From assembly GCA_050633745.1 (NCBI GenBank), contig JBOEHD010000063.1, forward strand, positions 48,346-112,345: 64,000 nucleotides of DNA, in the 5' to 3' direction. Shown piece by piece: positions 1 through 13,437 of the stretch. The position numbers were made by a program, and so were the translations under genes. The notes below the pieces were generated by a model, which searched no databases, had not been told where the DNA came from, and saw nothing but the letters and a program-made list of their open reading frames with translations. The stretch comes from Acidimicrobiales bacterium (GTDB lineage: Bacteria > Actinomycetota > Acidimicrobiia > Acidimicrobiales > SZUA-35). Every line of letters begins with the position of its first letter. The stretch's first letter is position 1.

Positions 1-374
1 CGGTCGCTCGCTCCATTCACCGCTACCGAGGCGATGCAAAATTCACCACCTGGCTCTACTCGGTGGCCCGCAACACCGCCATAACGGAGATTCGTCGTCA
101 ACAACCAACAGTAGTGATCGATGATCGGTACCTCGACCATATGGACCAGCGTCGGGTCAGCTCTCTCGTCGCCGAACGTGACCTATTGCGCGATGCGATT
201 TACTCCTTACCGCCCATTTTCCGGGAGACCGTTCTACTTAGGGACGTCGAACGACTGAGCTACAGCGAGATCGCTGAACGCCAGGGCCTGGCGATCAACA
301 CCGTTCGGTCTCGACTGTCTCGTGGGCGAGCTCTGCTGGCCGCGCTACTTCCAGATCAGCGATCGAACCGATGA
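1..374 (+). CDS. ECF-type RNA polymerase sigma factor, 5'-truncated by the window edge
   Basis: The reading frame is open from position 3 (VARSIHRYRGDAKFTTWLYSVARN...), a region-2-like segment matching the paralog at 9242-9934. Region 4 helix-turn-helix: SLPPIFRETVLLRDVERLSYSEIAERQGLAINTVRSRLSRGRALL. The stop overlaps the kinase start (ATGA at 371-374). Confidence 0.85.
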   Translation, partial: VARSIHRYRGDAKFTTWLYSVARNTAITEIRRQQPTVVIDDRYLDHMDQRRVSSLVAERDLLRDAIYSLPPIFRETVLLRDVERLSYSEIAERQGLAINTVRSRLSRGRALLAALLPDQRSNR

Positions 375-2062
375 CGCCCCTGCGCACCAAACGCTACATC
401 GGCGGCTACCGGGTCATCGCTCCGATCGGGGCTGGCGGATTTGCCACCGTGTACCGAGCGATCAACGAGGCGACCGGGCAAGAGGTTGCGATCAAAGTCC
501 TGGCCGAGAATCACAGCCTGGTCGCTGACACCAGACGTCGCTTTCTAGAAGAGATCGATCTGCTGAGAACGGTTGATAGCCAAGCCATCGCTCAGATATA
601 CGAGGTCGGTGAGACCGAGACCGACCAGCCATTCATGGTGTTGGAGCTGGCCGATCGAGGCGATCTCAGGCGGCGGCTTGAGGAGATAAGAAGTAGCCAC
701 CAGGTACTCAGCCGAGCCGAACTGGCGCTGCTGGCCCACCATCTCTACGACTCGTTGACCACGCTGCATCGGGCGGAGATCGTTCACCGCGACGTTTCGC
801 CCGGCAACATCTTGATCCGCAGCCACCAGAACACACCAAACACCAAGCAACCAAAGAGCGACGGTTCGGTGGCATTACTCGAACCAGGCGAGCGGTTACT
901 CCTAGCCGACTTGGGCCACGCCAAAGACATGATCCGAGCCTCCGGCTTTACCGCTGGCGGCGGGACACGGGGCTTCACCTCACCAGAACAGCGGGACGAC
1001 ATTACCGTCGTCGACCTGCGTGCCGACATCTTCAGCGCAACCGCGGTCATCGAATGGGCGGCTCACGACGGCGAATATGCCGAGATCCTCGAACCGTTCT
1101 TCGACGTAGGGCTGGCAGAAGACCCGGCAGACCGCTTCACCAGCATGACGGAGTGGCACGCGGCGTTCTCTGCGTCATTGAGCGCAGGCAGCGACGAAGA
1201 CACAGGCGGACCGTTGGCTCTCGGCTCGATGGTCGACTTCGCCAAGGGCCAAGCTCCGTCCGTCAATCGGCGAGCCATCAGCGTGGCGGTCGCCGCCCTA
1301 GCCCTCGGGGGCATGGCCGCCTTCGTGCTAACGCAGCTCAACACCCCGAACGAGATCGGCAATGGAACGACGGTGGCCGGAGTGAGGGCCGATGTAAATC
1401 CAGACATCGACGATGGAGCAGATGGTTCGCTCAACAGCGGCCCAACGCTCGTAGTTAAGGCAACCGATGAGGATCTTCTACCCGCCAGCCCAACGGCGCC
1501 ACTGATCCAGACCTCCGATGCTGACGGAACAGTCCCCGGGTCCCCTACGTCAAACCCCAGTAGCACCTCGCAAGGGCCGTCAACCACCGCTGAAAGTGCC
1601 AGCACCACGGTCAGCGTCACTACGACGAGTACGAGCACCAGCACAAGCACCACCGAGGCCAGCACGACAAGCACAGCACCTACCACCACCGAGCAGCCCG
1701 GCGGCGGCACCGATCCGTCAGCCGACATTCTTGAGCCGGCTGACGGCGGTCGGATCCGCAACGAGATGAGTATTGCAGGCGTCGCAGAGGGACTTGCCCC
1801 AGAAGGCCTGGTCCGTGTTGCGGTGGTTAACAGTTCGACAGACTTGTACTGGAACGCCGAGGAAGAACAGTTCCAGCCCGAGCCTGTGCGGTTCGATGTC
1901 AAGGTCGAGCAGGACGAAGATGACAGCCTCCCGGGAACCTGGGAATATACGATCCCGGCTGAACGACTTGAGTCGGGCCTGTATTACATCCGCGTGTGGG
2001 CCAGCGATGCCGATGACAACCTTCCGTTAGGCAGCGACACACATGCCGTGGAGGTTAGGTAG
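371..2062 (+). CDS. Membrane Ser/Thr protein kinase (Hanks-type) with an extracytoplasmic Ig-like C-terminal module
   Basis: Kinase motifs: GAGGFATVY, VAIKVL, HRDVSPGN, DLG, GTRGFTSPE. One TM segment (AISVAVAALALGGMAAFVL). A Ser/Thr/Pro-rich linker is followed by a C-terminal beta-type module (LYWNAEEEQF...WEYTIPAERLESGLYYIRVWASDADDN). Confidence 0.9.
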   Translation: MTPLRTKRYIGGYRVIAPIGAGGFATVYRAINEATGQEVAIKVLAENHSLVADTRRRFLEEIDLLRTVDSQAIAQIYEVGETETDQPFMVLELADRGDLRRRLEEIRSSHQVLSRAELALLAHHLYDSLTTLHRAEIVHRDVSPGNILIRSHQNTPNTKQPKSDGSVALLEPGERLLLADLGHAKDMIRASGFTAGGGTRGFTSPEQRDDITVVDLRADIFSATAVIEWAAHDGEYAEILEPFFDVGLAEDPADRFTSMTEWHAAFSASLSAGSDEDTGGPLALGSMVDFAKGQAPSVNRRAISVAVAALALGGMAAFVLTQLNTPNEIGNGTTVAGVRADVNPDIDDGADGSLNSGPTLVVKATDEDLLPASPTAPLIQTSDADGTVPGSPTSNPSSTSQGPSTTAESASTTVSVTTTSTSTSTSTTEASTTSTAPTTTEQPGGGTDPSADILEPADGGRIRNEMSIAGVAEGLAPEGLVRVAVVNSSTDLYWNAEEEQFQPEPVRFDVKVEQDEDDSLPGTWEYTIPAERLESGLYYIRVWASDADDNLPLGSDTHAVEVR

Positions 2063-2094
2063 TAGCTGCAGCCCCCCAACCGTCTGGGAACCAA

Positions 2095-3144
2095 GTGCCA
2101 CAAATCGAATCGGTCACCACCGAAGTCCTGGCGGGCAAGAATCTAATAAACGTCATCGTTCGAGTCCGCGACCGTGACGGCGCTGAGGGAACCGGCGAAG
2201 CCTGGTGGGGTATCCCCGACCGCACCGACCCTCCACGGGCGGCCACACCTATAACCGCGGTGATCGACGATCTGCTGGCACCAAGAGTTGTCGGCCGCGA
2301 CGCCGATCACATAGAGCGAATTTGGCACGAGCTATGGGACTGGGGCTACCGCTACGCCGACCAGGGCATCTTTCAGATGGGACTATCGGGACTCGACCTG
2401 GCCCTGTGGGATCTGAAAGGTAAACGCCTAGAACAGCCGGTGGCGTCGCTGCTCGGCGGGCCGGCGAGCGATGGCATCCGCGCCTACGCAAGCTTCCCGG
2501 CGCTGCGAACCCCAGAGCTTCTGGTCAGCGAGACCACCAGGGCGATCGAAGCGGGATTTGGGGCGATCAAGCTTCATGAGCTTGACCCTGAACTCACCGC
2601 GTTGCTGCGCAACGAGTTCGGCGACGAGGTGGAAATCATGGTCGATGTGAATGGCCACTTCGATCCGATCGAAGCCATCGAACACGGAAAACGGCTCAGC
2701 GAGCTCGGGGTGCTTTGGTTCGAGGAACCGGTGCGGCCTATGCGCGATCACCGAGCGCTGAAACGGGTGAACGACGCCATCGCCTGCGATCTTGCGGCGG
2801 GCGAAAACGAATACACCCTCGATGACTTTGATCGCCTACTCAAGACCGGGGCCATCGCCTACCTCCAACCGGAAATCACCAAGATCGGCGGCATGACGCC
2901 CGCCCGACGGGTCAGCGCCCTGGCCGAGCTCTACAACGTGGCACTCAGCCCTCACAACTTCCGTCTCGGGCCGTCGCTCTACGCGTCAATCCAATGGGCA
3001 TTCACCACCCCAGCTACAAGGTGGATGGAGATTCCATGGCTGCCACCGGGCTCGGAATTTTCGTTCCCAACCGTGCTGCCACCGATGAAAGACGGCATGG
3101 TTCTGCCGCTGACCGAACCCGGCCTCGGTGTTCTCGCAAGCTAA
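2095..3144 (+). CDS. Enolase-superfamily enzyme (mandelate racemase / muconate lactonizing enzyme family, probable acid-sugar dehydratase)
   Basis: Family signature segments: GEAWWG, KLHELD, MVDVNGHF, WFEEP, AAGENEY (the metal-ligand Asp/Glu/Glu pattern). GTG start. Confidence 0.85.
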   Translation: MPQIESVTTEVLAGKNLINVIVRVRDRDGAEGTGEAWWGIPDRTDPPRAATPITAVIDDLLAPRVVGRDADHIERIWHELWDWGYRYADQGIFQMGLSGLDLALWDLKGKRLEQPVASLLGGPASDGIRAYASFPALRTPELLVSETTRAIEAGFGAIKLHELDPELTALLRNEFGDEVEIMVDVNGHFDPIEAIEHGKRLSELGVLWFEEPVRPMRDHRALKRVNDAIACDLAAGENEYTLDDFDRLLKTGAIAYLQPEITKIGGMTPARRVSALAELYNVALSPHNFRLGPSLYASIQWAFTTPATRWMEIPWLPPGSEFSFPTVLPPMKDGMVLPLTEPGLGVLAS

Positions 3145-3197
3145 ACGTCACTCGGGTTTGATGGGCCTCCGGTTGCAGTCGGGCCTAGCCTGAATTC

Positions 3198-4076
3198 ATG
3201 GCAAGCGTCGAAGCAAACGGAATGACCATCGAGTACGACATCCGAGGCGATGGTGAACCGATGCTGCTCGTCATGGGTTTGGCAGGCCAGCTGGTCGACT
3301 GGCCAGACGACTTTGTCGACCTCTTCGTCGACCAGGGCTTCAAGGTCATTCGATTCGATAACCGAGATATCGGCTTGTCGACAAAAACCAACTGGACACC
3401 GCCGAGCGATGCCAAGACCCTGAGGTCAATGATCACTCGCCGCCCGCTACCCGGGGTCGGCTACACGATCAGCGACATGGCAGCCGATGCTGCAGGCTTG
3501 CTCGACGCACTGGGCATCGACGACGCCCACGTTGTCGGAATGTCGATGGGCGGCATGATCGCCCAGGAGCTGGCCATCAACCATCCGCAGAAGGTTCGTT
3601 CCCTCTGCTCGGTCATGTCCAACACCGGCGACCGCAAGAACGGCGGCATCGCCGCTTCTCTCCTAGCCAAGATGGCCCGTCGCAAACCACCGACAAAGGC
3701 CACTGCAGCCGACGCCTCGGTTGAGCTGTTCAGTCTGATTGCCGGACCGCACTATGACCCGATCGAGCATCGCAAGCTGGTGGCGTTGAACATCGAACGC
3801 AGTTTCGCCCCCGACGGTGTCGCCCGACAGACCGCAGCCATTGCCGGCAGTCGCAACCGCACGCCGTTCCTGGCGTTGGTGAAAGCGCCGACGCTGGTCA
3901 TCCACGGCCTGGTCGACCCGCTAGTGAAACCGAGCGGCGGTGTGGCCACCGCCAAAGCTATCCCCGGGGCCCGGCTGTTGGCCTTTCCCGACATGGGTCA
4001 TGACCTGCCGCGGCCCCGTTGGCCTGAGATGCGCGACGCCATCATCGAAAACTGCGGGCGGGCTGTAAGGGTCTAG
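3198..4076 (+). CDS. Alpha/beta-fold hydrolase
   Basis: Nucleophile elbow GMSMGG. N-terminal LLVMGLAG oxyanion region. C-terminal HGLVDP...GH typical of the fold. Confidence 0.85.
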   Translation: MASVEANGMTIEYDIRGDGEPMLLVMGLAGQLVDWPDDFVDLFVDQGFKVIRFDNRDIGLSTKTNWTPPSDAKTLRSMITRRPLPGVGYTISDMAADAAGLLDALGIDDAHVVGMSMGGMIAQELAINHPQKVRSLCSVMSNTGDRKNGGIAASLLAKMARRKPPTKATAADASVELFSLIAGPHYDPIEHRKLVALNIERSFAPDGVARQTAAIAGSRNRTPFLALVKAPTLVIHGLVDPLVKPSGGVATAKAIPGARLLAFPDMGHDLPRPRWPEMRDAIIENCGRAVRV

Positions 4077-4113
4077 TTCTGCCACCGGGTGCTGCGCGGG
4101 TTAGTTTTGCCCG

Positions 4114-4899
4114 ATGGATGTTCGTTTGGATGGTAGGAACGCTCTAATCACCGGTGGAAGTCTGGGCCTCGGCCTAGCTATGGCCACCGAATTCGCTCGA
4201 TCGGGGGCGACGGTGGCCATCGTTGGCCGCACCCAGGCAACCCTCGATGAGGCGGTGGCCAGCATCACCGCCGAGGCGCCAGAGGCCACGGTGCAGGCCT
4301 TTGCCTGCGACGTTCGAGACGCCGCTGCTCTGACCGCGACCCATGAGCAGGTCGTGGCGGCCATCGGCCCGATCGACATTCTGGTCAACAACGCAGGTAC
4401 GTCGGCGGCCATGCCGTTCCTGAAGTCAACCGACGAGGACTGGCAGAACGACCTCGACCTGAAGTTGTTGGCTGCGGTTCGCCTCTGTCGGCTTTGTATC
4501 CCGGCCATGGTTGAGGCCGGGCGGGGCCGAATCATCAACGTGCTAAACACCGCGGCCAAGGCGCCCGGTGCGAAGTCTGCCCCGACCTCGGTGAGCCGAG
4601 CGGCCGGCATGGCGCTGACCAAGGTGCTGGCCTCCGAGTTCGCATCATCAGGAATTCTGGTCAACGCATTGAACACCGGCGTTCTAAAAACCAGCCAGTG
4701 GCATCGCCTGCACACCGAACGTTCCCCGGAGCTGACGTTCGATGAGTTCATCGAGTCGGTCGGCAAGAACATCCCGGTTGGTCGTATGGGTGACGCGTCA
4801 GAGTTCGCCAACCTGGCCTGCTTCCTCGCCTCCGATCAGGCTTCATACATCACCGGAACCGCTATCAACGTCGACGGTGGCATGGCGCCGGTGGTTTGA
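4114..4899 (+). CDS. Short-chain dehydrogenase/reductase (SDR)
   Basis: Cofactor motif ITGGSLGLGLA and the NNAG motif. Length of about 260 aa is typical of a classical SDR. Confidence 0.9.
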   Translation: MDVRLDGRNALITGGSLGLGLAMATEFARSGATVAIVGRTQATLDEAVASITAEAPEATVQAFACDVRDAAALTATHEQVVAAIGPIDILVNNAGTSAAMPFLKSTDEDWQNDLDLKLLAAVRLCRLCIPAMVEAGRGRIINVLNTAAKAPGAKSAPTSVSRAAGMALTKVLASEFASSGILVNALNTGVLKTSQWHRLHTERSPELTFDEFIESVGKNIPVGRMGDASEFANLACFLASDQASYITGTAINVDGGMAPVV

Positions 4900-4927
4900 G
4901 CCAGCGGTTTGAGCCGCTCGCCAGCCA

Positions 4928-5332
4928 CTAGCCAGCAGCACCCGGGTGCAGCGGATCTTGACCCAGACGGTCGAGTCTCCGCAGCTGGGCCTTCACATAG
5001 TCTCGGGCGCGGCGTTGGCCGCCGCGCTCACCTATGGCCTCTTGGAGGCGTAGCAGCCCGGCCCGAACTACCTCCCGCCGCGGCTGCCAACCGCTGGCTT
5101 CACACTGCGCTAGCCACTGGCACGGTGTGCTGTGACCGCGACGGCTATTGCACCGCGAGCAGGCCGCCAACTCGTTCTCGATCCAGCTCGGACCACCTTT
5201 GAGCTTCGGGACAAGATGCTCAGTCGTCGCTCGGACCAGGGGTGTATCGATCTCGCGGTTGCACCAAACGCACCGCGCTCCGTCCCGTTCGAGGATCAGC
5301 AGCAGCCGGGCCGCTCGATCTACCTGAGCCAC
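4928..5332 (-). CDS. Stand-alone HNH endonuclease
   Basis: HNH/zinc-ribbon core CVWCNREID...TTEHLVPKLKGGPSWIENELAACSRCNSRRGH. The start is uncertain. The ORF is open to 5467 (TTG), but that would overlap the divergent gene at 5447. The GTG at 5332 gives the usual ~20 aa lead before the first Cys pair. Confidence 0.65.
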   Translation of the reverse strand: MAQVDRAARLLLILERDGARCVWCNREIDTPLVRATTEHLVPKLKGGPSWIENELAACSRCNSRRGHSTPCQWLAQCEASGWQPRREVVRAGLLRLQEAIGERGGQRRARDYVKAQLRRLDRLGQDPLHPGAAG

Positions 5333-5446
5333 AAATCCAATGGTAGGTCGACAAAAACCGATCTTGCGCGGAACTTTTGTTGACTTCGACGCGACGAACG
5401 TGCTTTCCCGGTCGGTTTGATCCGGCCACACGCCACTGGAGCACAA

Positions 5447-7513
5447 ATGCGTCTTCGTCCACCTCAAGCGTCTCGAGCCGGTTTAAGACAACTTGTTTTC
5501 CTACTGATCTTCGCCGCCTGTCTGATGGCTATGCCTGCGGCCGCCAATGCTCTGACCTCGCCACAAACCAAGGTCAAGTCCCCAGCCCAGGGCAGCATCG
5601 TCACCGCTGATGTGACGGTGAGAGGGTCGGCTAGCCATGGCCGTGGGGTCGCTGAGGTCAGGCTGGTGTTCAAGAACCTCGATGACCGTACCTACTGGAA
5701 CGGCCACGATTGGCAGGATGAGTTCGTGCGGTTCTCGGTACCGGTGGACCGCCCGGGGGCCAAACAAACCAGTTGGTCCTACGTCATGCCGTGGCAAGAA
5801 ATGACCGAAGGTAACTACCGGGCTCGGGCCTTTGCTCGCAGCGTCGATGGCAACGGTGATTCCAGTGGCGGCGACCGGAAAGAGTTCAGCTACCGCACGA
5901 ACCATGACCTATACGACACCGAGATAACCGGTCCGACGGGGGCGATCTCTGACGCCGAGCCGATCACCGTTGTGGGTCGAGGACGTTCGAGCGAAGGCGT
6001 GGCGCTGGTCAGGGTGGCGATCCACCATCGCGAATCCAAGCAGTACTGGAACGGCGAATCGCAGCAGTGGCAGAAACGTTATGTGAACAGTTTGGCTGAG
6101 CTCGATGAGCCAGGTGGGAACGACGTCAACTGGCAGGTGGTCATCCCGGCCGGCAGCAATCTTGTTGGGCACTACACCGCTCGGGCATGGGTTCGGACCT
6201 CGACCGACAAGGGGGACCCGTTCGGCCGTGGACGCACCAGCTTCGAAACTGTTGCAACACCGCCTCCGACTACAACAACGACGGTGCCTCCAACCACAAC
6301 ACCTCCAACCACAACACCACCAACCACCGCGCCACCAACCACTGCCCCACCGACGACTCGGCCGCCGACCACTACCCCACCGACCACAACCCCGCCGACC
6401 ACCGCGCCACCAACCACTACCCCACCGACCACGCAACCTCCAACCACCCAGCCGTCCACAACGGCGCCAACCACCGCCCCGCCGACTACCGCTCCTCCGA
6501 GCACACAGCCGCCGTGTGCCGGTGGGAACGCGGCGATTCTGGTGCCGTGCAGCGGTGTGCTGATCGGGGCCTCGGGAGACTTCAAGGCCGACGACGGGTC
6601 GTCACAATCTAAGCAGGATCACTTTGCCAGGATGGAGGAACGGCTCGATGCCGACTTCGACATCTTTCATGACTTCCTGCAGTGGCGAGACATGGTTAGC
6701 AAGACCTGGCCAAACGCCAAGACGCAGGCCCTAGCCGATGATGGCCACATCCTGCTGACCAACTGGAAGTCGCCGACGCAGAGCGTCACAGACTGGGCCA
6801 GAATCGCCGACGGCGTGTACGACGCCGACATTCGGACCGCCGCTGGTCAGGTCAAAGCCTTCGGTGAACCGACATTCATCACCTTCTTCCACGAACCGGA
6901 GGACAACATCCGCGACACCGCTGACGGCGACCAGGCCAAGGTTCAGCAGTACATCGATGACTACAGCGCGGCATTCCGCCACATCCACGATGTGTTCGAA
7001 TCGGCCGGTGCCGACAACGCCATCTGGGTGTGGGATATGCAGGGTTGGCTTGGCGGTTTCGAAAGCTACTACGAGAACGGCCTCTACCCCGGCGATGACA
7101 TCATCGACTGGGTCGGCTGGAACCCCTACAACTGGTACGGCTGCGAGAACCACAACAACCCACGGAAGTGGAAGACCTTCGATCAGGTGATCAGCCCGTT
7201 CTACAACTGGTTGGATGAGGGAGGGCCGAACCGGCCGTCGCTGGACAAGCCGATGATGCTCGGCGAATGGGGCAGCGAAGAAAACGATGGCGCCTCCAAT
7301 TCGAGCCAGACGAAGGCCGAGTGGCTCGACGATGCCCGTCGGATGCTTCCCACCCAATTCCCCCGCTTGCGGGCGGTGGTGTACTTCGACACCGAAGGGC
7401 GCAGGGCCGACAACACGGTGCAGTTCTGCGAGTGGGCCATCGACAGCAGCCCGAGTTCGATGGCTGCGATGACCTCGCTACTGACCGATCCGGTTCTAAC
7501 TGCTCGCTGGTAG
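5447..7513 (+). CDS. Secreted modular glycoside hydrolase: signal peptide, 2x Ig-like module, Pro/Thr linker, GH26-like catalytic domain
   Basis: Signal peptide MRLRPPQASRAGLRQLVFLLIFAACLMAMPAAANA. Two repeats of the module (TYWNGHDWQDEFVRFSVPV...SWSYVMP...GNYRARAFA and QYWNGESQQW...NWQVVIP...GHYTARAWV). About 85 aa of PPTTT repeats. The C-terminal domain has a GH26-style layout: IADGVYDADI...FITFFHEPEDN, IWVWD, YPGDDIIDWVGWNPYNW, KPMMLGEWG. Confidence 0.8.
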   Translation: MRLRPPQASRAGLRQLVFLLIFAACLMAMPAAANALTSPQTKVKSPAQGSIVTADVTVRGSASHGRGVAEVRLVFKNLDDRTYWNGHDWQDEFVRFSVPVDRPGAKQTSWSYVMPWQEMTEGNYRARAFARSVDGNGDSSGGDRKEFSYRTNHDLYDTEITGPTGAISDAEPITVVGRGRSSEGVALVRVAIHHRESKQYWNGESQQWQKRYVNSLAELDEPGGNDVNWQVVIPAGSNLVGHYTARAWVRTSTDKGDPFGRGRTSFETVATPPPTTTTTVPPTTTPPTTTPPTTAPPTTAPPTTRPPTTTPPTTTPPTTAPPTTTPPTTQPPTTQPSTTAPTTAPPTTAPPSTQPPCAGGNAAILVPCSGVLIGASGDFKADDGSSQSKQDHFARMEERLDADFDIFHDFLQWRDMVSKTWPNAKTQALADDGHILLTNWKSPTQSVTDWARIADGVYDADIRTAAGQVKAFGEPTFITFFHEPEDNIRDTADGDQAKVQQYIDDYSAAFRHIHDVFESAGADNAIWVWDMQGWLGGFESYYENGLYPGDDIIDWVGWNPYNWYGCENHNNPRKWKTFDQVISPFYNWLDEGGPNRPSLDKPMMLGEWGSEENDGASNSSQTKAEWLDDARRMLPTQFPRLRAVVYFDTEGRRADNTVQFCEWAIDSSPSSMAAMTSLLTDPVLTARW
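6258..6513 (+). repeat. Coding low-complexity tandem repeat (CCN-ACN units encoding the PPTT(T/A) linker)
   Basis: Visible DNA periodicity (ccaccaaccac / ccgccgaccac units). Translates as PPTTTPPTTTPPTTAPPTTAPPTTRPPTTTPPTT.... It also generates the spurious ORFs 5909-6436(-), 6105-6563(+), 6172-6585(-) and 6187-6612(+). Confidence 0.85.
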
Positions 7514-7550
7514 CCGCTCGAAGGCGACTCGACGCAGCTTCCGGCACGGC

Positions 7551-9245
7551 TCAGTCAGCGACGGCGACATACCGTTGATCGCTGACTGGGTCGTTGGCGT
7601 CGGAACCGATGGCCCAGACCCGAACGAAGTAGCGGCCGGGCGGCAATTCATCGGCGCCGACGGTATATGACCAGCTGACGTCGTTGGCCCCTGAAGGCGT
7701 TACCGGAACCAAAAACCTGATCCACTCCGACTCGAATGACCGAGTCGAGTCATGCCAATACTTCTTGTCTTGCTCCCGACGGATCACCAGGTTCACCCCG
7801 TCGATGCCGTCTCGGTAGCTGGCACTACCGAGAACTTCAAGGTCGGTGGCGATCAGCGATTCGTCGAGCGGGCTATCGATGAAGGCACGCGGTGAACCTA
7901 TAAACAGCGGATCGATCGTGGTTGTGGTCGTCTCTCGAACGCTGGTCTCTGGGATGCTGGTCGCCGCGGTTGTCGCTGGCGACGTTGTCGCTGGTGACGT
8001 TGTGTCTGATGTTGCTGGTGTTGTTGTCGCTGATGTTGTGGTCGCTGTGGTGGTTGTCTCTGTTGTCGTCGCTGTCGCTAATGTCGAGGTTGGCGAGCTA
8101 CTCTCGGGCGGCGGCGGGCTACTCTCGGTATCGGCGGAGGTAGCTGAGTCTGCAGTACTCGTTTCGGTCACAGGTGCAGGTGGTGCGGCCTGCGACGTTG
8201 AAAGGGCGGGCGTCGGCGACGCTACCGATTGTGAGCTGCCCGTCGCACTGGAGTCGGTAGTCGACGACCCGAAACGATCATTGGCAAACCAAACAGCGGC
8301 GACGATCGCTGACAGGGCCAGTAACGCCCCGGCGGTCAGATACTCTTTGCGGAAAGAACGACCGGCAGCTATCGGGTGGCTTTCGACGGGGCGGTTCCCG
8401 ACGGTGTGCGGCGGAGATCGGCGATCCAGAATGTGGGTTAGCTCGGCCGACCATTCGGCCATCGACGGGTGGCGATCCTGCGGATTGGCGGCCATGCCGG
8501 TAGCGATGAACTCGGCCAGCTGATCGTCTAGCTCACCACCTTCGACCATCCATCGGATCAGTGCGGTGGCGCCGTAGACATCAGCCCGATGATCGACAAC
8601 CGCGATTTCCTGCTGTTGTTCTGGAGCGGCAAAGCCGCGGGTGCCTCCACCCGCTGTCAGCCCGGAGGCGAAGTGCAGATCCTTAGCGAATCCTAGGTCG
8701 GCCATCAGGTAACGCTCGTCCGGTGCCAGCAGCAGCGAATCTCGGGCGACATGATCGCCAAGCGCTGTGGAGGTGGCGATCAAGACATTCCCCGGGGTGA
8801 CGTCTCGGTGCACGATCCCCGCTTCGTGCAGCACACCGAGAGCGACCCTCAGGTGCTCAGCCAAGGCCAGTGCATCGGCACGGTCCGGTGAGCGGCCGCC
8901 AGCTGTTCTGCCAAGTCGAAACTGTTCAACCCGTCGACCGAGGTCGCCCCGGTCGGCCAATTCGAGCACCATGTATGGTTGACCGGCATCGGTTTCGCCC
9001 TGGCCATAGACCGTGGCGACGGCCGGGCTTCGAATAGCCATCAGTAGCGCCGCTTCCTCGAGGAAACGCTGCCGTAGATCGGGGACCTTACTGTAGTTAT
9101 CTGCCAGCACCTTCACTGCAACTTCGGTGTCGGCATCCTCGTCGAAGGCCCGGTAAACCGAAGCCGAAGAGCCGACTCCAATCAGCTCAAGCAAGCGGTA
9201 GCGGCCGATGTAGCGGGGCTCGCTAGTGCGGGTGGTGCGGGTCAC
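7551..9245 (-). CDS. Membrane Ser/Thr protein kinase, paralog of 371-2062, with the same Ig-like ectodomain
   Basis: Motifs: GVGSSASVY, VAVKVL, HRDVTPGN, DLG, GTRGFAAPE. TM segment LTAGALLALSAIVAAVWF. Thr/Ser-rich linker. C-terminal module KYWHDSTRSFESEWIRFLVPV...SWSYTVGADELPPGRYFVRVWAIGSDAND. The GTG start overlaps the sigma stop (GTGA, 9242-9245). Confidence 0.9.
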   Translation of the reverse strand: MTRTTRTSEPRYIGRYRLLELIGVGSSASVYRAFDEDADTEVAVKVLADNYSKVPDLRQRFLEEAALLMAIRSPAVATVYGQGETDAGQPYMVLELADRGDLGRRVEQFRLGRTAGGRSPDRADALALAEHLRVALGVLHEAGIVHRDVTPGNVLIATSTALGDHVARDSLLLAPDERYLMADLGFAKDLHFASGLTAGGGTRGFAAPEQQQEIAVVDHRADVYGATALIRWMVEGGELDDQLAEFIATGMAANPQDRHPSMAEWSAELTHILDRRSPPHTVGNRPVESHPIAAGRSFRKEYLTAGALLALSAIVAAVWFANDRFGSSTTDSSATGSSQSVASPTPALSTSQAAPPAPVTETSTADSATSADTESSPPPPESSSPTSTLATATTTETTTTATTTSATTTPATSDTTSPATTSPATTAATSIPETSVRETTTTTIDPLFIGSPRAFIDSPLDESLIATDLEVLGSASYRDGIDGVNLVIRREQDKKYWHDSTRSFESEWIRFLVPVTPSGANDVSWSYTVGADELPPGRYFVRVWAIGSDANDPVSDQRYVAVAD

Positions 9246-9934
9246 GACAGTCGACCCGCAAGTAAGGCTCGACCTCGGGAAAGTCGCGACCGCACGGTGT
9301 TGATCTCAAGGCCCTGCCGTTTTGCGATCTCGGCATAGCTCAGGCCTTCGATATCTCGCAGCAGCACCGTCTCGCGAAAGATCGGGGGCAGCGAGTCAAT
9401 CGCCTCTCGCACCACCTCCCGCTGGGTCACAATTGAAGACATCCGCCGGAGGGTCTTGTTGGCCAGGAGGTCGCTCTCCGCTAGTTCGTCTTCCGGCCGA
9501 AGCCGACGGAGCTGACCGATGGCGACGTTGCGGGTCAGTGCATAGAGCCAGGTGGTGAACTTGGAATCGCCCCGGAATCGTTCGATCGAACCGCTGACCG
9601 CTACCAGCACCTCCTGCTCGATGTCCTCGATCAGTGCCCCATTGTTAGAGAGCCGAGCGATAGCCGGAGCGGCCAGGTCGAGTTGGTCAACAAGACGCAG
9701 CAGCAGCTCAAGGCCGCGCTCCGAACCGGTCGCTGCCGAAGCGGCCACGAGATCTACCACCGTGGAGTCGACGCCAGCAAGCGAGACCAAACGATCGCCT
9801 GCCGCGGCCGACCCTGCGGTGTACGCCACGAGCAACTCAGCAGCGGAGGAAAACGATTGCGGCGATGACTGCGGCGGCGCTGGCGGCGGCGCCGTTGCCG
9901 AACGACGACTCCCGCTACTCCGCCGCCTTATCAC
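9242..9934 (-). CDS. ECF-type sigma factor, paralog of 1-374, with a long Ser/Ala/Pro-rich N-terminal extension
   Basis: Region 2: EDIEQEVLVAVSGSIERFRGDSKFTTWLYALTRNVAIGQLRR. Region 4: SLPPIFRETVLLRDIEGLSYAEIAKRQGLEINTVRSRLSRGRALL. GTG start at 9934. Confidence 0.85.
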   Translation of the reverse strand: MIRRRSSGSRRSATAPPPAPPQSSPQSFSSAAELLVAYTAGSAAAGDRLVSLAGVDSTVVDLVAASAATGSERGLELLLRLVDQLDLAAPAIARLSNNGALIEDIEQEVLVAVSGSIERFRGDSKFTTWLYALTRNVAIGQLRRLRPEDELAESDLLANKTLRRMSSIVTQREVVREAIDSLPPIFRETVLLRDIEGLSYAEIAKRQGLEINTVRSRLSRGRALLAGRLS

Positions 9935-10015: not shown

Positions 10016-11335
10016 CTACGAAGTGAGGGTAGCCGCCGTCGATTGGTTGAGCTGGTCGATGCCCTGGATGATCTCCAACATGGTGGCAGAAGCCGACTCG
10101 ACGTCGCTCCGAGCCCGGTCGGTGGTATCACGCTGCTCTCGTACCCCGGTCTCGACCTGCTGCTGACGACCGACGATCGAGTCGACAAGCTCGGCAACGC
10201 CCGATACCCGGGTAGCGGAACTGGTCACCCGGGAACGTAGATCGTCGGTGATCTCTCGGATCTGGTCGGTGGCCTGTGAAGTCTGCTTTGCCAGGTCCTT
10301 CACTTCGGTTGCGACCACGGTGAAGCCGCGTCCGGCGGTGCCAGCTCGCTCGGCTTCGATGGTGGCATTTAGAGCGAGGAGATTGGTCTTGTTGGCAATG
10401 TCGGAGATCAGGTCGACCATCTCGGTGATTCGACGACTCCGCTCATCGAGTTCTTCGACGACCTGCTGTGTGGTCGAGGCCTCGTCGTTGGCCCGCAGGG
10501 CCAACTCCAGAACCTGATGAACCTCGTCGGAGATTGCGCTCGAAGTCTCGGTCATCGTTGTCATCGTTGATGATGTCTCGCCGATCATTTCTCGCACACG
10601 GGCCGAAGACGAAGCCAAATCAGAGGAGCGTCGGGCGACATCTTCGGCCTGGGCCACCTGTTGTTCGAGGTTCTGCCGCTGGCTCTCGGCGAGAACGATA
10701 CTCTCGTCGCTGAGCAGCTTCTGTCGCTCCATCGTGGCGTCCTGTTGTGCCGATAACATCAGCCATCGGTCATGCTGCAGTTGCAGTGTGTACCAGTTGA
10801 TGGATAGCGCCCCGATCAGCATCAGGACGAAGAAGACGTGCACCGCAGTCCACAACAGCGGATTCTGTTGCCCACGCTCGTGCTCAAAAAGGATGGCCGG
10901 ATCATAGACACTCAACGTGGCGTGGTGGACTGCGGTGAAGCCCACCACCGCTACGAACGGCCGCAGGTCGACATACAGAGCGGTCAGTGTGAGCACAACA
11001 AACCAATGGAAGTGAGCCTCGATGATGCCGCCGCTGAAGTGAATTAGAGTTGCTGCTGCGTAGACGAGACCCACCGAAGTGGCGATGGAACGAATCAGGC
11101 GGTGCATCTCACTCAGGCCAAGGACGCCAAGTACAAACACCGGCAAGGTCTCAACAGAGGCATGCCACAGGGCATAGTCCTTGAGTAGTCCGATAGCTAA
11201 CAACACCGGGATGTGTAGCAAGAGAGTACGGGTGATTAGTCGATGACGGAACTCGAACTGTTCGTCATCGATGGCTCGTCCGTTTGGAATATGGTCCTTA
11301 AAGCCAGTCACCCTTAAGTTGTCGGACTCCGTCAT
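10016..11335 (-). CDS. Methyl-accepting chemotaxis protein (MCP) signalling-domain protein with an N-terminal polytopic membrane domain
   Basis: Highly conserved MCP hairpin tip: [36 protein letters not shown]. The N-terminal ~200 aa hold 5-6 hydrophobic helices rich in His ([23 protein letters not shown]). I prefer the ATG at 11335 (MTESDNL) over the track start at 11419, because 11419 would overlap the divergent gene at 11380. Confidence 0.8.
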
Positions 11336-11379
11336 CCAAAAACTAAGCAAAAAGTCAGGCTGACATATCGGCCGAATCG

Positions 11380-13437
11380 ATGAAAGGACTCTGGGTGTCA
11401 AGGACCTTGGGGGCGTCACGAATTATTCGAAGAGCGACAATAGTGGCTGTTGCAATTTGTATAACCTGGCTCGGGCTTCTGCCCGGCGATGCAGGCGCGA
11501 TCACTGACGATCCTGACGTCGACACCTTCGCCGCGTATGAGTATCGCATCGACCCCGACCGAGGTGTTGTCGATGTAACGATCAACATGGCGGTGACGGC
11601 AGACAAACCGAATCGCACATTGAGCAGCGGCGACTACTACGAGTACTACTTTCAGGGCTATTTCCTGGCTGTTCCAGAAGAGGCGATCGACCTCAGGGTG
11701 ACCGACGCAGCCGACCGGGCCCTGAACTTCGAGGTGAACACCGAGAACGAAGGTTTCTCGATCCTGGACATCGATTTCCGCCGCAATATCTTTTACCGGC
11801 AAACCGCTGACGTGGTGGTGACGTACAGCCTGCCAAAGGGAGAAGCGCGCAGCGATGCTCCAGCCAGGGTTAATGAGGCCTATGCCGGGTTTTCGATATG
11901 GCTGACGCCGCAACTCGAAGGTGCTTCGGTGACTGTTGTCAGCCCAAAAGGGTTCGATAATGAAAGTACCGGTTCCGAACCGTTCAAGATCGAATCAAAT
12001 GCCGATGAGACTCTGTTTATCGCCGAAGACGTAGACCCGGAGGACTACTGGGCACTGGTCTCGTTAGCCCGAGACCAGTCTCTGACTACTACCGAACTCT
12101 CCATCGCGGGCAACGCCATCGAGGTCAGCGCTTGGCCAGACGATGCGGCCTGGTCCGAACATGTGACCATCAACCTTGAACAGGGTCTTCCTCGACTCAT
12201 CGAAACCGTCGGCCAGCCATGGCCCATCGACGGCGAGTTGGCGATCATCGAGTCGTACTCGCCATACCTGCTCGGTTACGCAGGCTGGTATGACCCGACC
12301 ACAAACCAGATCGAAATCGGCGACGAACTCGACAGCCATCTCGTCTTCCATGAGCTATCGCACGTGTGGTTCAACGATGAGCTCTTCGGCAAGCGGTGGA
12401 TCACCGAGGGGCTATCCGACGTGTTCGGAGCGGCGGTGGTCGAATCGATGGATCAGGAGCGGCCGAGGCCGCCGTCGACCTCGCTGCTCGACCCTATCGC
12501 CGGGCCGCTCAACGAGTGGAGTCAATTCGACCGTGATCCCGAGGTCGAAAGCTGGTCATACGATGCCAGCTGGACGGTGACCGAGGCCATCGCTGAAGCG
12601 GTAGGGATCGAGGTGCTGTCCGATGTAGTGCAGGCCGCGGCGGAAGACGAGATCTCGTACCTGGGCGATGGGCCACCTGAATCAGACTCGAGGGACGACG
12701 GCTGGCGGCGATACCTCGATCTCATCGAGAACCGGGGAGCGGTAACCGACGACAGCATCACCGATCTGTTCAGTGAGTGGGTAGTACCCGACCCGCTGAA
12801 GCCCATGCTGGCTAAGCGCTCGGAACATCGCGGCCGCTATGGGGAGCTGGTTGAGAGGGGTGAGACCTGGGCTGCACCTCACGCCGTTCGAGTCGCCATG
12901 TCGGAGTGGGAGTTCGACGACGCCGATGATCTTATGGCCGCTTCGGAGGCGATCTTGGACCGTCGAGAGCTGGTTTATGGGGTTCTTGCCCCGCTCGAAG
13001 CTTCGCTGCCAGCGAAGCTAGAAGCGGACTACGAGCACGCCACCTCAGACTTGCGCCAAACCTCATCGCTGATGACCGAGGTTGAGGACAGCGCCGACCA
13101 ACTCCGGCGTTCCTATGAAGCGGTGGAGAGCGTTTCAGGTCCGCTGCAGTGGGTGGGAGCGCTTGGCACCGACTACCCGACGGACTTCGATGAGGCTGTA
13201 TCGGCCTTCGAACGCGGCAACCTCACCGCCGCGACGGCTCAGAGCCGTGCAGTCGATGAGGAAGTTGCCGATCTTAGGAACCGAGGACTGTTCCGAGTGA
13301 TCTCGGTAGCCGTCGGAGTATTGCTTTGTATTGGCTTGCTTGCGGTGATCCTCAGCCGGCGGCGATATCGCCGCCGGCTGAATGCATCAGTGCAAGTTAG
13401 CGCCGCTGCAACAGAAGCTGATAGCAGCGCTAGTTAG
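11380..13437 (+). CDS. Secreted, C-terminally membrane-anchored zinc metallopeptidase (gluzincin, M1-like / peptidase MA clan)
   Basis: Signal peptide. HELSHVWF (HExxH) followed by WITEGLS (the Glu third ligand). C-terminal TM plus basic tail: [27 protein letters not shown]. Confidence 0.8.

What the first reader, a model, noticed from the sequence alone, without database searches (positions are those of the whole stretch)
1725..7900. One Ig-like module is shared by both kinase ectodomains and, in duplicate, by the secreted GH26-like hydrolase encoded between them
Four copies of a ~105 aa module align by eye. All share the pattern I/V-x-P-x(3-6)-[IV]...V-x-G-x-A...V-x-[VL]-x(6-9)-YW[NH]-x(5-9)-[WF]-x(3)-[VF]-x-[FV]...W-x-[YV]-x(8-12)-G-x-Y-x-[AV]-R-[AV]-[WF]-A.
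- Kinase 1 C-terminus: ...LYWNAEEEQFQPEPVRFDVKV...TWEYTIPAERLESGLYYIRVWASDADDN.
- Kinase 2 C-terminus: ...KYWHDSTRSFESEWIRFLVPV...SWSYTVGADELPPGRYFVRVWAIGSDAND.
- Hydrolase repeat 1: ...TYWNGHDWQDEFVRFSVPV...SWSYVMPWQEMTEGNYRARAFARSVDGN.
- Hydrolase repeat 2: ...QYWNGESQQWQKRYVNSLAEL...NWQVVIPAGSNLVGHYTARAWVRTSTDKG.

In the hydrolase the module occupies the position usually taken by carbohydrate-binding or Ig-like spacer domains. In the kinases it is the only extracytoplasmic folded part and sits at the end of a long S/T/P stalk. One hypothesis is that the kinases sense the same glycan, or a product of it, that the hydrolase binds, and so couple polysaccharide detection to an ECF sigma response.
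Basis: partly seen in the sequence, partly recalled or inferred. Interest (0 to 1): 0.6.

Follow-up and report, generated by a model that had tools for sequence, protein, structure and literature searches.

The report
Sigma–kinase–glucanase cassette sharing an Ig module
Two membrane kinases and a secreted beta-glucan-cutting enzyme in an uncultured Acidimicrobiales bacterium carry related copies of one bacterial Ig-like domain, and they form a gene cassette that recurs in relatives and probably switches the enzyme on in response to an outside signal.

Summary
All four ~110-aa modules are true homologues. A profile built without the window's sequences scores them at E 1e-31 to 2e-15 against a 1.84-billion-protein scale. 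AlphaFold2 models (pLDDT 96.5 and 94.3) show an Ig-like beta-sandwich.

The module is not a recognised carbohydrate-binding family. It is a divergent member of the widespread Big_7/Gmad2-type bacterial Ig superfamily. That superfamily has 1,318 cluster representatives, arrays of up to 15 copies, and many different enzyme partners.

The hydrolase is a real GH26. It is closest to the C. thermocellum lichenase CtLic26A, and both catalytic Glu residues are conserved.

The new result is context:
- In 8 of about 10 related sigma–kinase loci, a module-bearing GH26 or GH16 glucanase lies next to the pair.
- Every glucanase gene whose 5' end is visible is preceded by a conserved ECF-type promoter, GGAAC-N17-CGAC (window 5369-5395).
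- Kinase, hydrolase-repeat-1 and hydrolase-repeat-2 modules form separate old clades.

The sigma/kinase-to-glucanase circuit is therefore well supported. Binding of one shared glycan by the modules remains untested and is only moderately likely.

Verdict: a new variant of known kinds (kinase-paired ECF sigma factors; polysaccharide biosensors of the RsgI type).

The parts
3..374 (+). ECF sigma factor 1. The N-terminus is cut off by the window start. The stop codon overlaps the K1 start by 4 nt.
   Evidence: Frame 3 is open from base 3. Sigma70_r4_2 E 2.4e-14. 61% identical to sigma 2 over the visible part.
371..2062 (+). Kinase 1 (K1), a single-pass Hanks-type Ser/Thr kinase of 563 aa. Layout: kinase domain, TM helix at aa 301-324, S/T/P stalk at aa 330-452, Ig module.
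   Evidence: Pkinase 104 bits against a cut-off of 31.7. TM helix and stalk composition. NCBI name 'serine/threonine-protein kinase', MGH1489536.1.
1727..2059 (+). Ig-like module of K1 (aa 453-563).
   Evidence: Independent HMM E 1.7e-15. Falls in the kinase-type clade.
5369..5395 (+). ECF-type promoter motif CGGAACTTTTG-N11-GCGAC (-35 GGAAC, 17-nt spacer, -10 CGAC). It ends 52 nt upstream of the hydrolase ATG.
   Evidence: The same motif precedes the module-hydrolase genes in L005, L088, L090, L091, L095 and L096, and in weaker form in L001. In a PWM scan it is the only site above 14 bits in the 64-kb window.
5447..7513 (+). Secreted hydrolase of 688 aa counted from the ATG (an alternative TTG lies at 5417). 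Layout: signal peptide, 2 x Ig module, Pro/Thr linker, GH26 catalytic domain.
   Evidence: ORF. GGAG lies 8 nt before the ATG, and the signal peptide ends ...AANA|LT. The exact 688-aa product is in NCBI, and its cluster is named 'glycoside hydrolase family 26 protein'.
5573..5899 (+). Hydrolase Ig module, repeat 1 (aa 53-161 in 698-aa numbering).
   Evidence: AF2 pLDDT 96.5. Independent HMM E 1.2e-31. Big_7 22.1 bits against a cut-off of 24.1.
5921..6253 (+). Hydrolase Ig module, repeat 2 (aa 169-279).
   Evidence: Independent HMM E 5.4e-21. Forms a separate 'r2' clade.
6254..6514 (+). Pro/Thr-rich linker (PPTTT repeats).
   Evidence: 76% S/T/P. The spurious Extensin_1 hit reflects composition.
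6515..7510 (+). GH26 catalytic domain. Acid/base Glu493 is at nt 6893-6895 and nucleophile Glu617 at nt 7265-7267.
   Evidence: phmmer against PDB: CtLic26A (2bv9, 2vi0) E 6e-25 over 283 aa. The query Glu residues align to E109 and E222.
7551..9245 (-). Kinase 2 (K2), a single-pass Hanks-type Ser/Thr kinase of 564 aa, convergent with the hydrolase. TM helix at aa 301-323, S/T/P stalk at aa 327-454.
   Evidence: Pkinase 80 bits. TM helix and stalk. MGH1489542.1.
7554..7883 (-). Ig-like module of K2 (aa 455-564).
   Evidence: AF2 pLDDT 94.3. Independent HMM E 1e-27.
9242..9934 (-). ECF sigma factor 2 (230 aa, with an N-terminal extension of ~90 aa). Its stop codon overlaps the K2 start by 4 nt.
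   Evidence: Sigma70_r2 and r4_2. TIGR02937 73 bits against a cut-off of 42.9. Orthologues sit directly upstream of every related kinase.

Best explanation
The four modules are old paralogues of one bacterial Ig-like domain of the Big_7/Gmad2 type (E-set beta-sandwich). They belong to a conserved three-part cassette of uncultured Acidimicrobiales/Actinomycetota:
1. An ECF sigma factor.
2. A translationally coupled single-pass Ser/Thr kinase. Its only ectodomain is one module on a long Ser/Thr/Pro stalk.
3. An adjacent secreted beta-glucanase that carries one or two paralogous modules at its N-terminus. The catalytic domain is GH26 of the CtLic26A type here and GH16 in some relatives.

Proposed mechanism: an extracellular cue acts on the kinase module. 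The kinase activates its sigma factor, presumably by phosphorylation, as shown for other kinase-paired ECF sigmas. The sigma factor then transcribes the glucanase from the conserved GGAAC-N17-CGAC promoter. The most likely cue is the beta-glucan, or a glucan-bearing surface, to which the enzyme's own modules tether it.

Shown here: module homology and fold, GH26 identity with its catalytic residues, conserved synteny, and a conserved promoter.

Inferred, with my probability for each step:
- This sigma factor reads this promoter: ~0.6.
- The kinase controls the sigma factor: ~0.7.
- The modules share a ligand: ~0.3.
For: - Homology and fold.
- GH26 with both catalytic Glu residues.
- Sigma and kinase genes overlap by 4 nt in both window pairs. 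A sigma gene sits directly upstream of the kinase in every relative.
- A module-bearing glucanase lies next to the sigma-kinase pair in the window (K2), L001, L088, L089, L090, L092, L095 and L096.
- The promoter motif precedes 8 hydrolase genes. It also occurs at two sigma-kinase loci that lack the hydrolase: L006/L007, and L093, where it faces two other genes. The PWM finds no other site above 14 bits in the window or in 11 loci.
- Kinase, r1 and r2 modules form separate clades, so the arrangement is old and maintained.
- The N-terminal modules are retained while the catalytic domain changes between GH26 and GH16. L090 carries GH16 plus a remnant of GH26.
- The module is also fused to other membrane signalling proteins: HTH-TM-2 x module proteins and a second kinase family.
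- Literature: kinase-paired ECF groups ECF43, 59-62, 217, 267 and 283 (PMC7826278; PMC8999054).
Against: - No carbohydrate-binding family is matched. The best fold matches are the sulfite oxidase dimerisation domain, CopC and FN3. A porphyran-binding CBM appears only at rank 10 for K2, with E 4e-4 and TM 0.54.
- The family is very broad and is attached to unrelated enzymes and adhesin-like arrays.
- The conserved aromatic residues are family-wide, so they are probably structural.
- The sigma factors keep acidic residues in region 2.2, so the one proven phospho-activation mechanism (ECF43) need not apply.
- No copy of the motif lies upstream of the sigma genes, so there is no autoregulation to tie the sigma factor to the motif.
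- Some hydrolases have only one module, r1-type in L096 and r2-type in L095.
- Two sigma-kinase loci have other neighbours.
Confidence: 0.45

Rival explanations
1. The regulatory cassette is real, but the module is a generic structural Ig spacer. It projects the kinase tip and the enzyme through or beyond the cell envelope and has no shared ligand. The kinase senses something else, for example envelope state through its long disordered S/T/P stalk, in the way the disordered region of B. subtilis RsgI probes peptidoglycan.
For: - The family is broad and promiscuous, with tandem arrays of up to 15 copies and many unrelated catalytic partners.
- Sequence and fold relatives are adhesin BIg repeats, FN3-like X modules and the sulfite oxidase dimerisation domain, not CBMs.
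- The signature residues are family-wide.
- The stalks are 123-128 aa and 49-64% S/T/P.
- Brunet et al. 2022 (PMC9732909) report that an extracytoplasmic disordered region on anti-sigma RsgI is required for signalling.
Against: - The kinase-type module is a distinct, well-conserved clade in all 13 kinases examined.
- It is the only folded ectodomain.
- The module has been fused independently to other membrane signalling proteins.
- The N-terminal modules stay with the cassette when the catalytic domain is exchanged.
Confidence: 0.33
2. The modules mediate direct protein-protein contact. The secreted glucanase docks through its N-terminal module onto the kinase module (Ig-Ig pairing) and acts as a co-sensor or a feedback element. 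Substrate either pulls the enzyme off the kinase or bridges the two.
For: - The kinase-type clade is sister to the hydrolase r1 clade. K2 is more similar to H1 (38% identity, E 8e-20) than to K1 (30%).
- The modules are kept while the catalytic domain is swapped.
- The best structural match for both models is a dimerisation Ig domain, that of sulfite oxidase.
- The r1 clade has a strikingly conserved C-terminal half, GNYRARAFARSVEGNGD..GGD..EF.
Against: - No interaction was or could be modelled here.
- L095 has only an r2-type module, and L006 and L093 have no hydrolase at all.
- L005 and L091 hydrolases have no kinase on their contigs, although those contigs are short.
Confidence: 0.1
3. The cassette is an envelope-homeostasis circuit. 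The glucanase trims the cell's own glucan-type exopolymer or wall glycan, and the modules anchor both proteins to that self polymer.
For: - ECF sigma factors typically handle envelope functions (established knowledge; PMC8103513 listed).
- At L093 the same promoter type drives a secreted RTX-like protein and an 88-aa protein rather than a glycanase.
- Gmad2-type Ig domains occur in S-layer and germination proteins.
Against: - GH16 laminarinase-like and GH26 lichenase-like enzymes are typical of foraging on external beta-glucans.
- No polysaccharide-synthesis genes flank the cassette in the window.
Confidence: 0.1
4. The similarity among the four segments is due to chance or to composition.
For: None. 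All three proteins contain low-complexity S/T/P regions, but these lie outside the modules.
Against: - Independent-HMM E-values of 1e-31 to 2e-15 at a scale of 1.84e9 proteins, with shuffles reaching at most 12.8 bits.
- Two confident models with the same fold.
Confidence: 0.01

Closest known systems
Pfam Big_7 (PF17957) / Gmad2 (PF10648) bacterial Ig-like domains (E-set)
   Same: - All-beta Ig-like sandwich.
- The N-terminal 'I.sP..g..v.g.v.i.G.A.D..gv..V' half aligns to Big_7.
- Found in secreted glycanases and fibrillar adhesins, often in tandem.
- 47 of 63 family instances hit Big_7 at E <= 0.01. The close homologue P0020 scores 38.7 bits.
   Different: - The window's copies are all below Pfam's cut-off. 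The best is H1, at 22.1 bits against 24.1.
- The module is ~105-110 aa, against a 70-position Big_7 profile.
- It has an extra YW(N/H)-x5-7-(W/F) hairpin and a G.Y..R.WA..D..GN.DP C-terminal half.
Clostridium thermocellum sigmaI/RsgI polysaccharide biosensors
   Same: - A membrane sensor has an ectodomain made of the same kind of module that the regulated glycoside hydrolases carry.
- The sensor controls an alternative sigma factor, which turns on those hydrolases (PMC4711584, PMC6852018, PMC10328401).
   Different: - There the sensor is an anti-sigma factor released by proteolysis, and the sensing modules are proven CBM3, PA14 or GH-like domains.
- Here the sensor is a Hanks kinase, the sigma factor is an ECF, and the module is an Ig-like domain with no shown glycan binding.
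ECF sigma factors paired with Ser/Thr kinases (ECF43 EcfP/PknT, EcfK/PknS; predicted groups ECF59-62, 217, 267, 283)
   Same: - The ECF sigma gene is next to a transmembrane Hanks kinase.
- No anti-sigma gene is present.
- Regulation by phosphorylation is shown for ECF43 (PMC8999054, PMC7826278, PMC13147305).
   Different: - The sigma factors here keep acidic residues ([ED]D) where ECF43 has S/T in place of DAED.
- They have an N-terminal extension of ~90 aa.
- The ECF group could not be assigned with the tools available.
- No kinase-paired ECF system found in the papers read here has a defined ectodomain shared with its target enzyme.
CtLic26A, the GH26 domain of C. thermocellum CelH (PDB 2bv9, 2vi0)
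   Same: - The catalytic domain aligns over 283 residues at E 6e-25.
- Acid/base E109 and nucleophile E222 are both conserved.
   Different: - The Pfam GH26 model does not reach E <= 1.
- The accessory modules differ: Ig-like modules here, against CBM11, GH5 and dockerin in CelH (own knowledge).
- Substrate is untested.

Membership tests
Ig-like beta-sandwich (E-set) fold | Seven-to-nine-stranded two-sheet beta-sandwich, with structural similarity to known Ig-like domains | tested here: met
   AF2 models have pLDDT 96.5 (H1) and 94.3 (K2) and are all-beta. Foldseek against PDB: sulfite oxidase C-terminal Ig domain E 2e-5, TM 0.64; also CopC, FN3 and S-layer Ig domains.
Pfam Big_7 (PF17957) | Score at or above the gathering cut-off of 24.1 bits | tested here: inconclusive
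   Window copies: H1 22.1 bits, K2 14.2 bits, K1 and H2 no hit. Close homologues pass (P0020 38.7 bits, P0019 27.5 bits), and 47 of 63 family instances match at E <= 0.01. The module is therefore a divergent relative, not a formal hit.
Carbohydrate-binding module (any CBM family) | Sequence membership of a CAZy/Pfam CBM family | tested here: not met
   No CBM model appears among Pfam hits at E <= 10 for the four modules or at E <= 0.01 for 63 family members. A profile search of PDB finds only Ig, FN3 and cadherin-type domains. The CAZy/dbCAN library was not available.
Carbohydrate-binding module (any CBM family) | Demonstrated binding to a carbohydrate | not testable with these tools
   Only a fold-level lead: the porphyran-binding CBM 8wae at rank 10 for the K2 model (E 4e-4, TM 0.54/0.63).
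Glycoside hydrolase family 26 | Significant sequence similarity to characterised GH26 catalytic domains | tested here: met
   CtLic26A E 6e-25 over residues 37-319 of the domain. The NCBI name for this protein's cluster is 'glycoside hydrolase family 26 protein'. The Pfam GH26 model gave no hit at E <= 1.
Glycoside hydrolase family 26 | Retaining-mechanism catalytic pair: acid/base Glu on strand 4 and nucleophile Glu on strand 7 | tested here: met
   FFHE493PED aligns to CtLic26A H108-E109. MMLGE617WG aligns to IIIAE222F.
Hanks-type Ser/Thr protein kinase | Pkinase domain above the cut-off, with Lys (VAxK), HRD, D(L/F)G and APE motifs | tested here: met
   Pkinase 104 and 80 bits against a cut-off of 31.7. 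VAIK/VAVK, HRDV, ADLG and (S/A)PEQ are visible in both sequences and invariant across 12 family members.
ECF (group 4) sigma factor | Only sigma2 and sigma4 domains, and a match to an ECF model above its cut-off | tested here: met
   Sigma70_r2 and Sigma70_r4_2. TIGR02937 sigma70-ECF 73.2 bits against 42.9.
Kinase-regulated ECF sigma (ECF43 type) | The acidic DAED motif in region 2.2 is replaced by S/T residues that are phosphorylated | tested here: not met
   The aligned position reads IEDIEQE, TDDVVQE, CDDIEQD and similar in 7 family members, so the acidic residues are retained. Criterion taken from PMC8999054.
Kinase-regulated ECF sigma (any group) | Conserved microsynteny with a Ser/Thr kinase, and no co-encoded anti-sigma factor | tested here: met
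   A sigma gene sits immediately upstream of the kinase in the window (twice, each with a 4-nt overlap) and in all 10 related loci. No anti-sigma domain is seen among the neighbours.
SigmaI/RsgI polysaccharide biosensor | RsgI-type anti-sigma factor with a sigmaI partner | tested here: not met
   No anti-sigma factor is present, and the sensor is a kinase. The resemblance is functional only.

The most novel reading that the evidence does not exclude
The shared Ig module is a recognition handle between enzyme and sensor. The secreted glucanase docks onto the kinase ectodomain through paralogous Ig-Ig pairing. The enzyme itself then reports substrate availability to a kinase-to-ECF-sigma pathway that controls its own promoter. 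This would be a self-contained 'enzyme as co-receptor' circuit, and two kinases with divergent modules (K1, K2) may converge on one promoter type.
Probability: 0.1. Interest if true: 0.75.

Novelty: new variant of a known kind. Interest (0 to 1): 0.5.

Why it matters
For almost all ECF sigma factors paired with Ser/Thr kinases, the input signal and the regulon are unknown. This cassette offers all the parts in one small, recurrent unit:
- a single-domain sensor;
- a probable target promoter with a clear consensus;
- a target enzyme with a predictable substrate class, beta-1,3 or beta-1,3-1,4 glucans such as laminarin or lichenan.

The question of what such a kinase senses therefore becomes directly testable with four small recombinant domains and one reporter fusion. 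It would also show how uncultured marine or sediment Acidimicrobiales regulate glycan foraging. Finally, it would test whether an Ig-like 'spacer' family can serve as a sensory module.

Tried and rejected
- The word-indexed homologue search with the four-module alignment found nothing. The exhaustive HMM search was needed instead.
- The metagenome scan with the kinase alignment returned 80 more distant kinases matched only in the catalytic domain. None had the module anywhere in its locus, so that scan said nothing about linkage.
- Looking up the K1 contig, to see what lies upstream of sigma 1 beyond the window, failed. K1's own neighbour therefore remains unknown.
- My first promoter pattern had the wrong spacing and found nothing. 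The corrected pattern found the site.
- I looked for the same promoter upstream of the sigma genes, as a sign of autoregulation. No site scored above 14 bits.
- I considered the DMFA2_C and EEP-family neighbours in L006 as hidden module carriers. No module was found even at E <= 1.
- I rejected the 'mannanase' reading. Only the lichenase CtLic26A matches strongly, and another GH26 matches at just E 0.004.
- I rejected chance similarity.

Full report
**Layout of the region**

ORF listing and Pfam/NCBIfam scans give the following gene order.

| Feature | Coordinates | Strand |
|---|---|---|
| ECF sigma 1, cut by the window start (frame 3 open from base 3) | 3-374 | + |
| Kinase K1 | 371-2062 | + |
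| Enolase-superfamily sugar-acid dehydratase homologue | 2095-3144 | + |
| Alpha/beta hydrolase | 3198-4076 | + |
| SDR | 4114-4899 | + |
| Small HNH protein | 4928-5467 | - |
| Hydrolase (likely ATG at 5447) | 5417/5447-7513 | + |
| Kinase K2 | 7551-9245 | - |
| ECF sigma 2 | 9242-9934 | - |

Both sigma genes overlap their kinase gene by 4 nt. An exact-sequence look-up shows that the window comes from a 115-kb contig of an Acidimicrobiales MAG. NCBI names the proteins 'serine/threonine-protein kinase' and 'glycoside hydrolase family 26 protein'.

**Checking the observation**

| Copy | Residues | Nucleotides |
|---|---|---|
| K1 | aa 453-563 | 1727-2059 |
| Hydrolase r1 | aa 53-161 | 5573-5899 |
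| Hydrolase r2 | aa 169-279 | 5921-6253 |
| K2 | aa 455-564 | 7883-7554 |

- Pairwise BLASTP gives 25-38% identity and E 5e-11 to 8e-20.
- A profile built only from non-window relatives scores the copies at 73-125 bits. That corresponds to E 2e-15 to 1e-31 at the scale of a 1.84-billion-protein library. The best of 1,000 shuffled copies reaches 12.8 bits.
- A six-frame scan finds no fifth copy in the 64 kb.
- AlphaFold2 models of r1 (pLDDT 96.5) and of the K2 ectodomain (pLDDT 94.3) are all-beta sandwiches with the same strand order.
- Each kinase has one transmembrane helix (aa ~301-324). A stalk of 123-128 aa follows, 49-64% Ser/Thr/Pro, and then the module. The module is therefore the only folded ectodomain.

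**What the module is**

- Pfam gives only sub-threshold matches to Big_7 (r1 22.1 bits against a cut-off of 24.1) and to Gmad2.
- The exhaustive HMM search finds 1,318 cluster representatives at E <= 1e-3. Many have 5-15 tandem copies in proteins of 1,000-3,400 aa.
- Of 63 diverse family instances, 47 hit Big_7 at E <= 0.01. Close homologues pass the cut-off, for example P0020 at 38.7 bits.
- In 68 full-length members the partner domains are Pkinase (11), GH16 (5), GDSL lipase, sulfatase, SASA esterase, DMFA2_C, beta-propellers and others.
- A profile search of PDB sequences finds SiiE adhesin BIg repeats, a 'bacterial immunoglobulin domain B1', the sulfite oxidase C-terminal domain and CbhA FN3-like modules.
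- Foldseek places both models nearest the sulfite oxidase dimerisation domain (E ~2e-5, TM 0.55-0.64), followed by CopC, FN3 and S-layer Ig domains. A porphyran-binding CBM appears only at rank 10 for K2.

The module is therefore a divergent member of a large and promiscuous bacterial Ig-like family. It is not a recognised CBM.

**The hydrolase**

- The C-terminal 330 aa align to CtLic26A, the GH26 lichenase domain of C. thermocellum CelH, at E 6e-25 over 283 residues.
- Glu493 aligns to the acid/base E109 and Glu617 to the nucleophile E222.
- The only other GH26 structure matched scores E 0.004.
- The protein has a Sec-type signal peptide and a Pro/Thr linker that is 76% S/T/P.

**Context in relatives: the main new result**

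Close relatives of the kinases all have the same architecture. In every locus retrieved, an ECF sigma gene lies directly upstream of the kinase.

A secreted glucanase with the module lies next to the pair in eight loci:

| Locus | Glucanase and arrangement |
|---|---|
| Window (K2) | 2 x module + GH26, convergent |
| L001 | 2 x module + GH26, convergent |
| L088 | 2 x module + GH26, convergent |
| L089 | GH16 at the contig end, convergent |
| L090 | 2 x module + GH16 + linker + a GH26 remnant, convergent |
| L092 | GH26 C-terminus upstream, co-directional |
| L095 | One r2-type module + GH26, convergent |
| L096 | One r1-type module + GH26 upstream, co-directional |

Exceptions and unknowns:
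- L006/L007 have a DMFA2_C protein as neighbour.
- L093/L094 have an 88-aa protein and an RTX-like protein as neighbours.
- One contig could not be read.
- The surroundings of K1 upstream of sigma 1 lie outside the window.

A neighbour-joining tree of modules separates kinase-type, r1-type and r2-type clades. The kinase type is sister to r1. The three positions are therefore old and maintained, and do not result from recent shuffling within this genome. The N-terminal modules are orthologous whether the catalytic domain is GH26 or GH16.

**A conserved promoter**

- Upstream of the hydrolase genes, otherwise unalignable sequences share (G/C)GGAACTTTTG-N11-GCGAC, that is GGAAC-N17-CGAC. This has the form typical of ECF promoters: an 'AAC' -35 element and a 'CG'-containing -10 element (own knowledge).
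- The motif is present in the window (5369-5395, ending 52 nt before the ATG) and in L005, L088, L090, L091, L095 and L096 (one extra spacer base). A weaker form occurs in L001.
- A PWM built from these sites finds no other site above 14 bits in the 64-kb window or in 11 loci, with two informative exceptions.
- The first exception is a perfect copy in L006/L007, in the short gap just downstream of the kinase. That is where the promoter would remain if the convergent hydrolase had been lost.
- The second exception is two back-to-back copies in L093, facing the 88-aa gene and the RTX-like gene.
- The motif therefore travels with the sigma-kinase pair whatever the neighbouring gene is. This is the best available evidence that the adjacent sigma factor reads it.
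- No copy precedes the sigma genes themselves.

**The sigma factors**

- The sigma factors are a coherent family, 43-61% identical, with an N-terminal extension of ~90 aa.
- They retain acidic residues where ECF43 sigma factors carry the phosphorylated S/T that replaces DAED (PMC8999054). The proven ECF43 mechanism therefore need not apply.
- Other kinase-linked ECF groups, including the actinobacterial ECF283, also keep acidic residues and are uncharacterised (PMC7826278, PMC8999054).

**Mechanism**

The best reading is a circuit running from the kinase ectodomain to the kinase, to the sigma factor, to the GGAAC-N17-CGAC promoter, and finally to the secreted beta-glucanase.

What the kinase module perceives is open. 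I rank the possibilities as follows:
1. The same beta-glucan or surface that the enzyme's modules hold on to.
2. No shared ligand. The module is a structural cap on a disordered stalk that itself senses envelope state, as in B. subtilis RsgI (PMC9732909).
3. Direct Ig-Ig contact with the enzyme.
4. A self-polymer homeostasis loop.

Independent fusion of the module to other membrane signalling proteins favours a sensory role. Examples are the HTH-TM-2 x module proteins P0019, P0020 and P0036, and a second kinase type, P0108. The breadth of the family argues against any fixed ligand.

**Comparison with known systems**

- In function, the nearest analogue is the C. thermocellum sigmaI/RsgI biosensor set. 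There the sensor ectodomains are the same kinds of modules as in the regulated enzymes. That sensor is an anti-sigma factor, and its modules are proven binders.
- In wiring, the nearest analogue is the kinase-paired ECF sigma factor (EcfP/PknT, EcfK/PknS).
- None of the papers found and read here describes a kinase-paired ECF system with a defined ectodomain shared with its target enzyme. This was not an exhaustive search.

I rate the finding a new variant of known kinds. It is of moderate interest because it makes the input of such a kinase testable.

Noticed in passing
L006 9692-9923 (also L007 5514-5745): At a sigma-kinase locus with no hydrolase, a perfect copy of the promoter motif (GGGAACTTTTCC-N-GCGAC) lies in the 230-bp gap after the kinase stop and points back at the kinase. 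About 100 nt further on there is a perfect GC-rich hairpin (GCTCGAACCGGGT...ACCCGGTTCGAGC). It is either a relic of a deleted hydrolase gene or a small sigma-dependent antisense RNA.
   Followed up: partly
L093 12024-12171: Two back-to-back motif-like promoters (GGAACTTTT-N12-GGGAC) face an 88-aa ORF and a secreted RTX-type (HemolysinCabind) protein next to a sigma-kinase pair that has no glucanase. The regulon of this sigma family is therefore not restricted to glycanases.
   Followed up: partly
L090 10001-12572: The hydrolase here reads 2 x module, GH16, Pro/Thr linker, then a GH26 domain with its central ~230 aa deleted. There is also a frameshift within the GH16 part. It looks like a snapshot of catalytic-domain replacement behind constant N-terminal modules, but it could be an assembly error.
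   Followed up: partly
window 5396-5420; L005, L090 equivalent positions: A second conserved box, G(G/T)GCTTTCC, lies 6-8 nt after the -10 element in the window, L005 and L090. A weaker copy occurs in the L006 relic. It may be the transcription start region or a 5'-UTR element.
   Followed up: no
window 9242-9934 (-) and sigma orthologues (alignment A5): All sigma factors of this family carry an N-terminal extension of ~90 aa and a conserved RRxSS motif in the sigma2-sigma4 linker. The motif is a candidate phosphorylation site, given that region 2.2 keeps its acidic residues.
   Followed up: partly
P0019, P0020, P0036 (not in the window): These membrane proteins have an N-terminal HTH-like region, one TM helix and two copies of the module outside the cell. 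P0108 is a different Ser/Thr kinase with two modules. They show independent recruitment of the module into signalling proteins.
   Followed up: partly
window 4928-5467 (-): A 179-aa HNH protein lies between the SDR and the hydrolase. Its only family matches are far-sub-threshold hits to the HNH regions of Cas9d (E 7e-12) and IscB. The annotated ORF overlaps the hydrolase promoter and start, so its true start is probably further in. L096 also has a small HNH gene two genes after its kinase.
   Followed up: no
window 10016-11419 (-) and 11380-13437 (+): Directly upstream of sigma 2 lies a 467-aa protein with a methyl-accepting-chemotaxis signalling domain and a multi-helix hydrophobic N-terminus, which is unusual for Acidimicrobiales. 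Next to it is a 685-aa protein containing an HExxH motif and a C-terminal TM helix, with no NCBIfam hit.
   Followed up: no
window 2095-4899 (+): Three co-directional genes follow K1: an enolase-superfamily sugar-acid dehydratase homologue, an alpha/beta hydrolase and an SDR resembling gluconate or glucose dehydrogenases. Together they could form a sugar-acid pathway. The group is not conserved next to related kinases.
   Followed up: no
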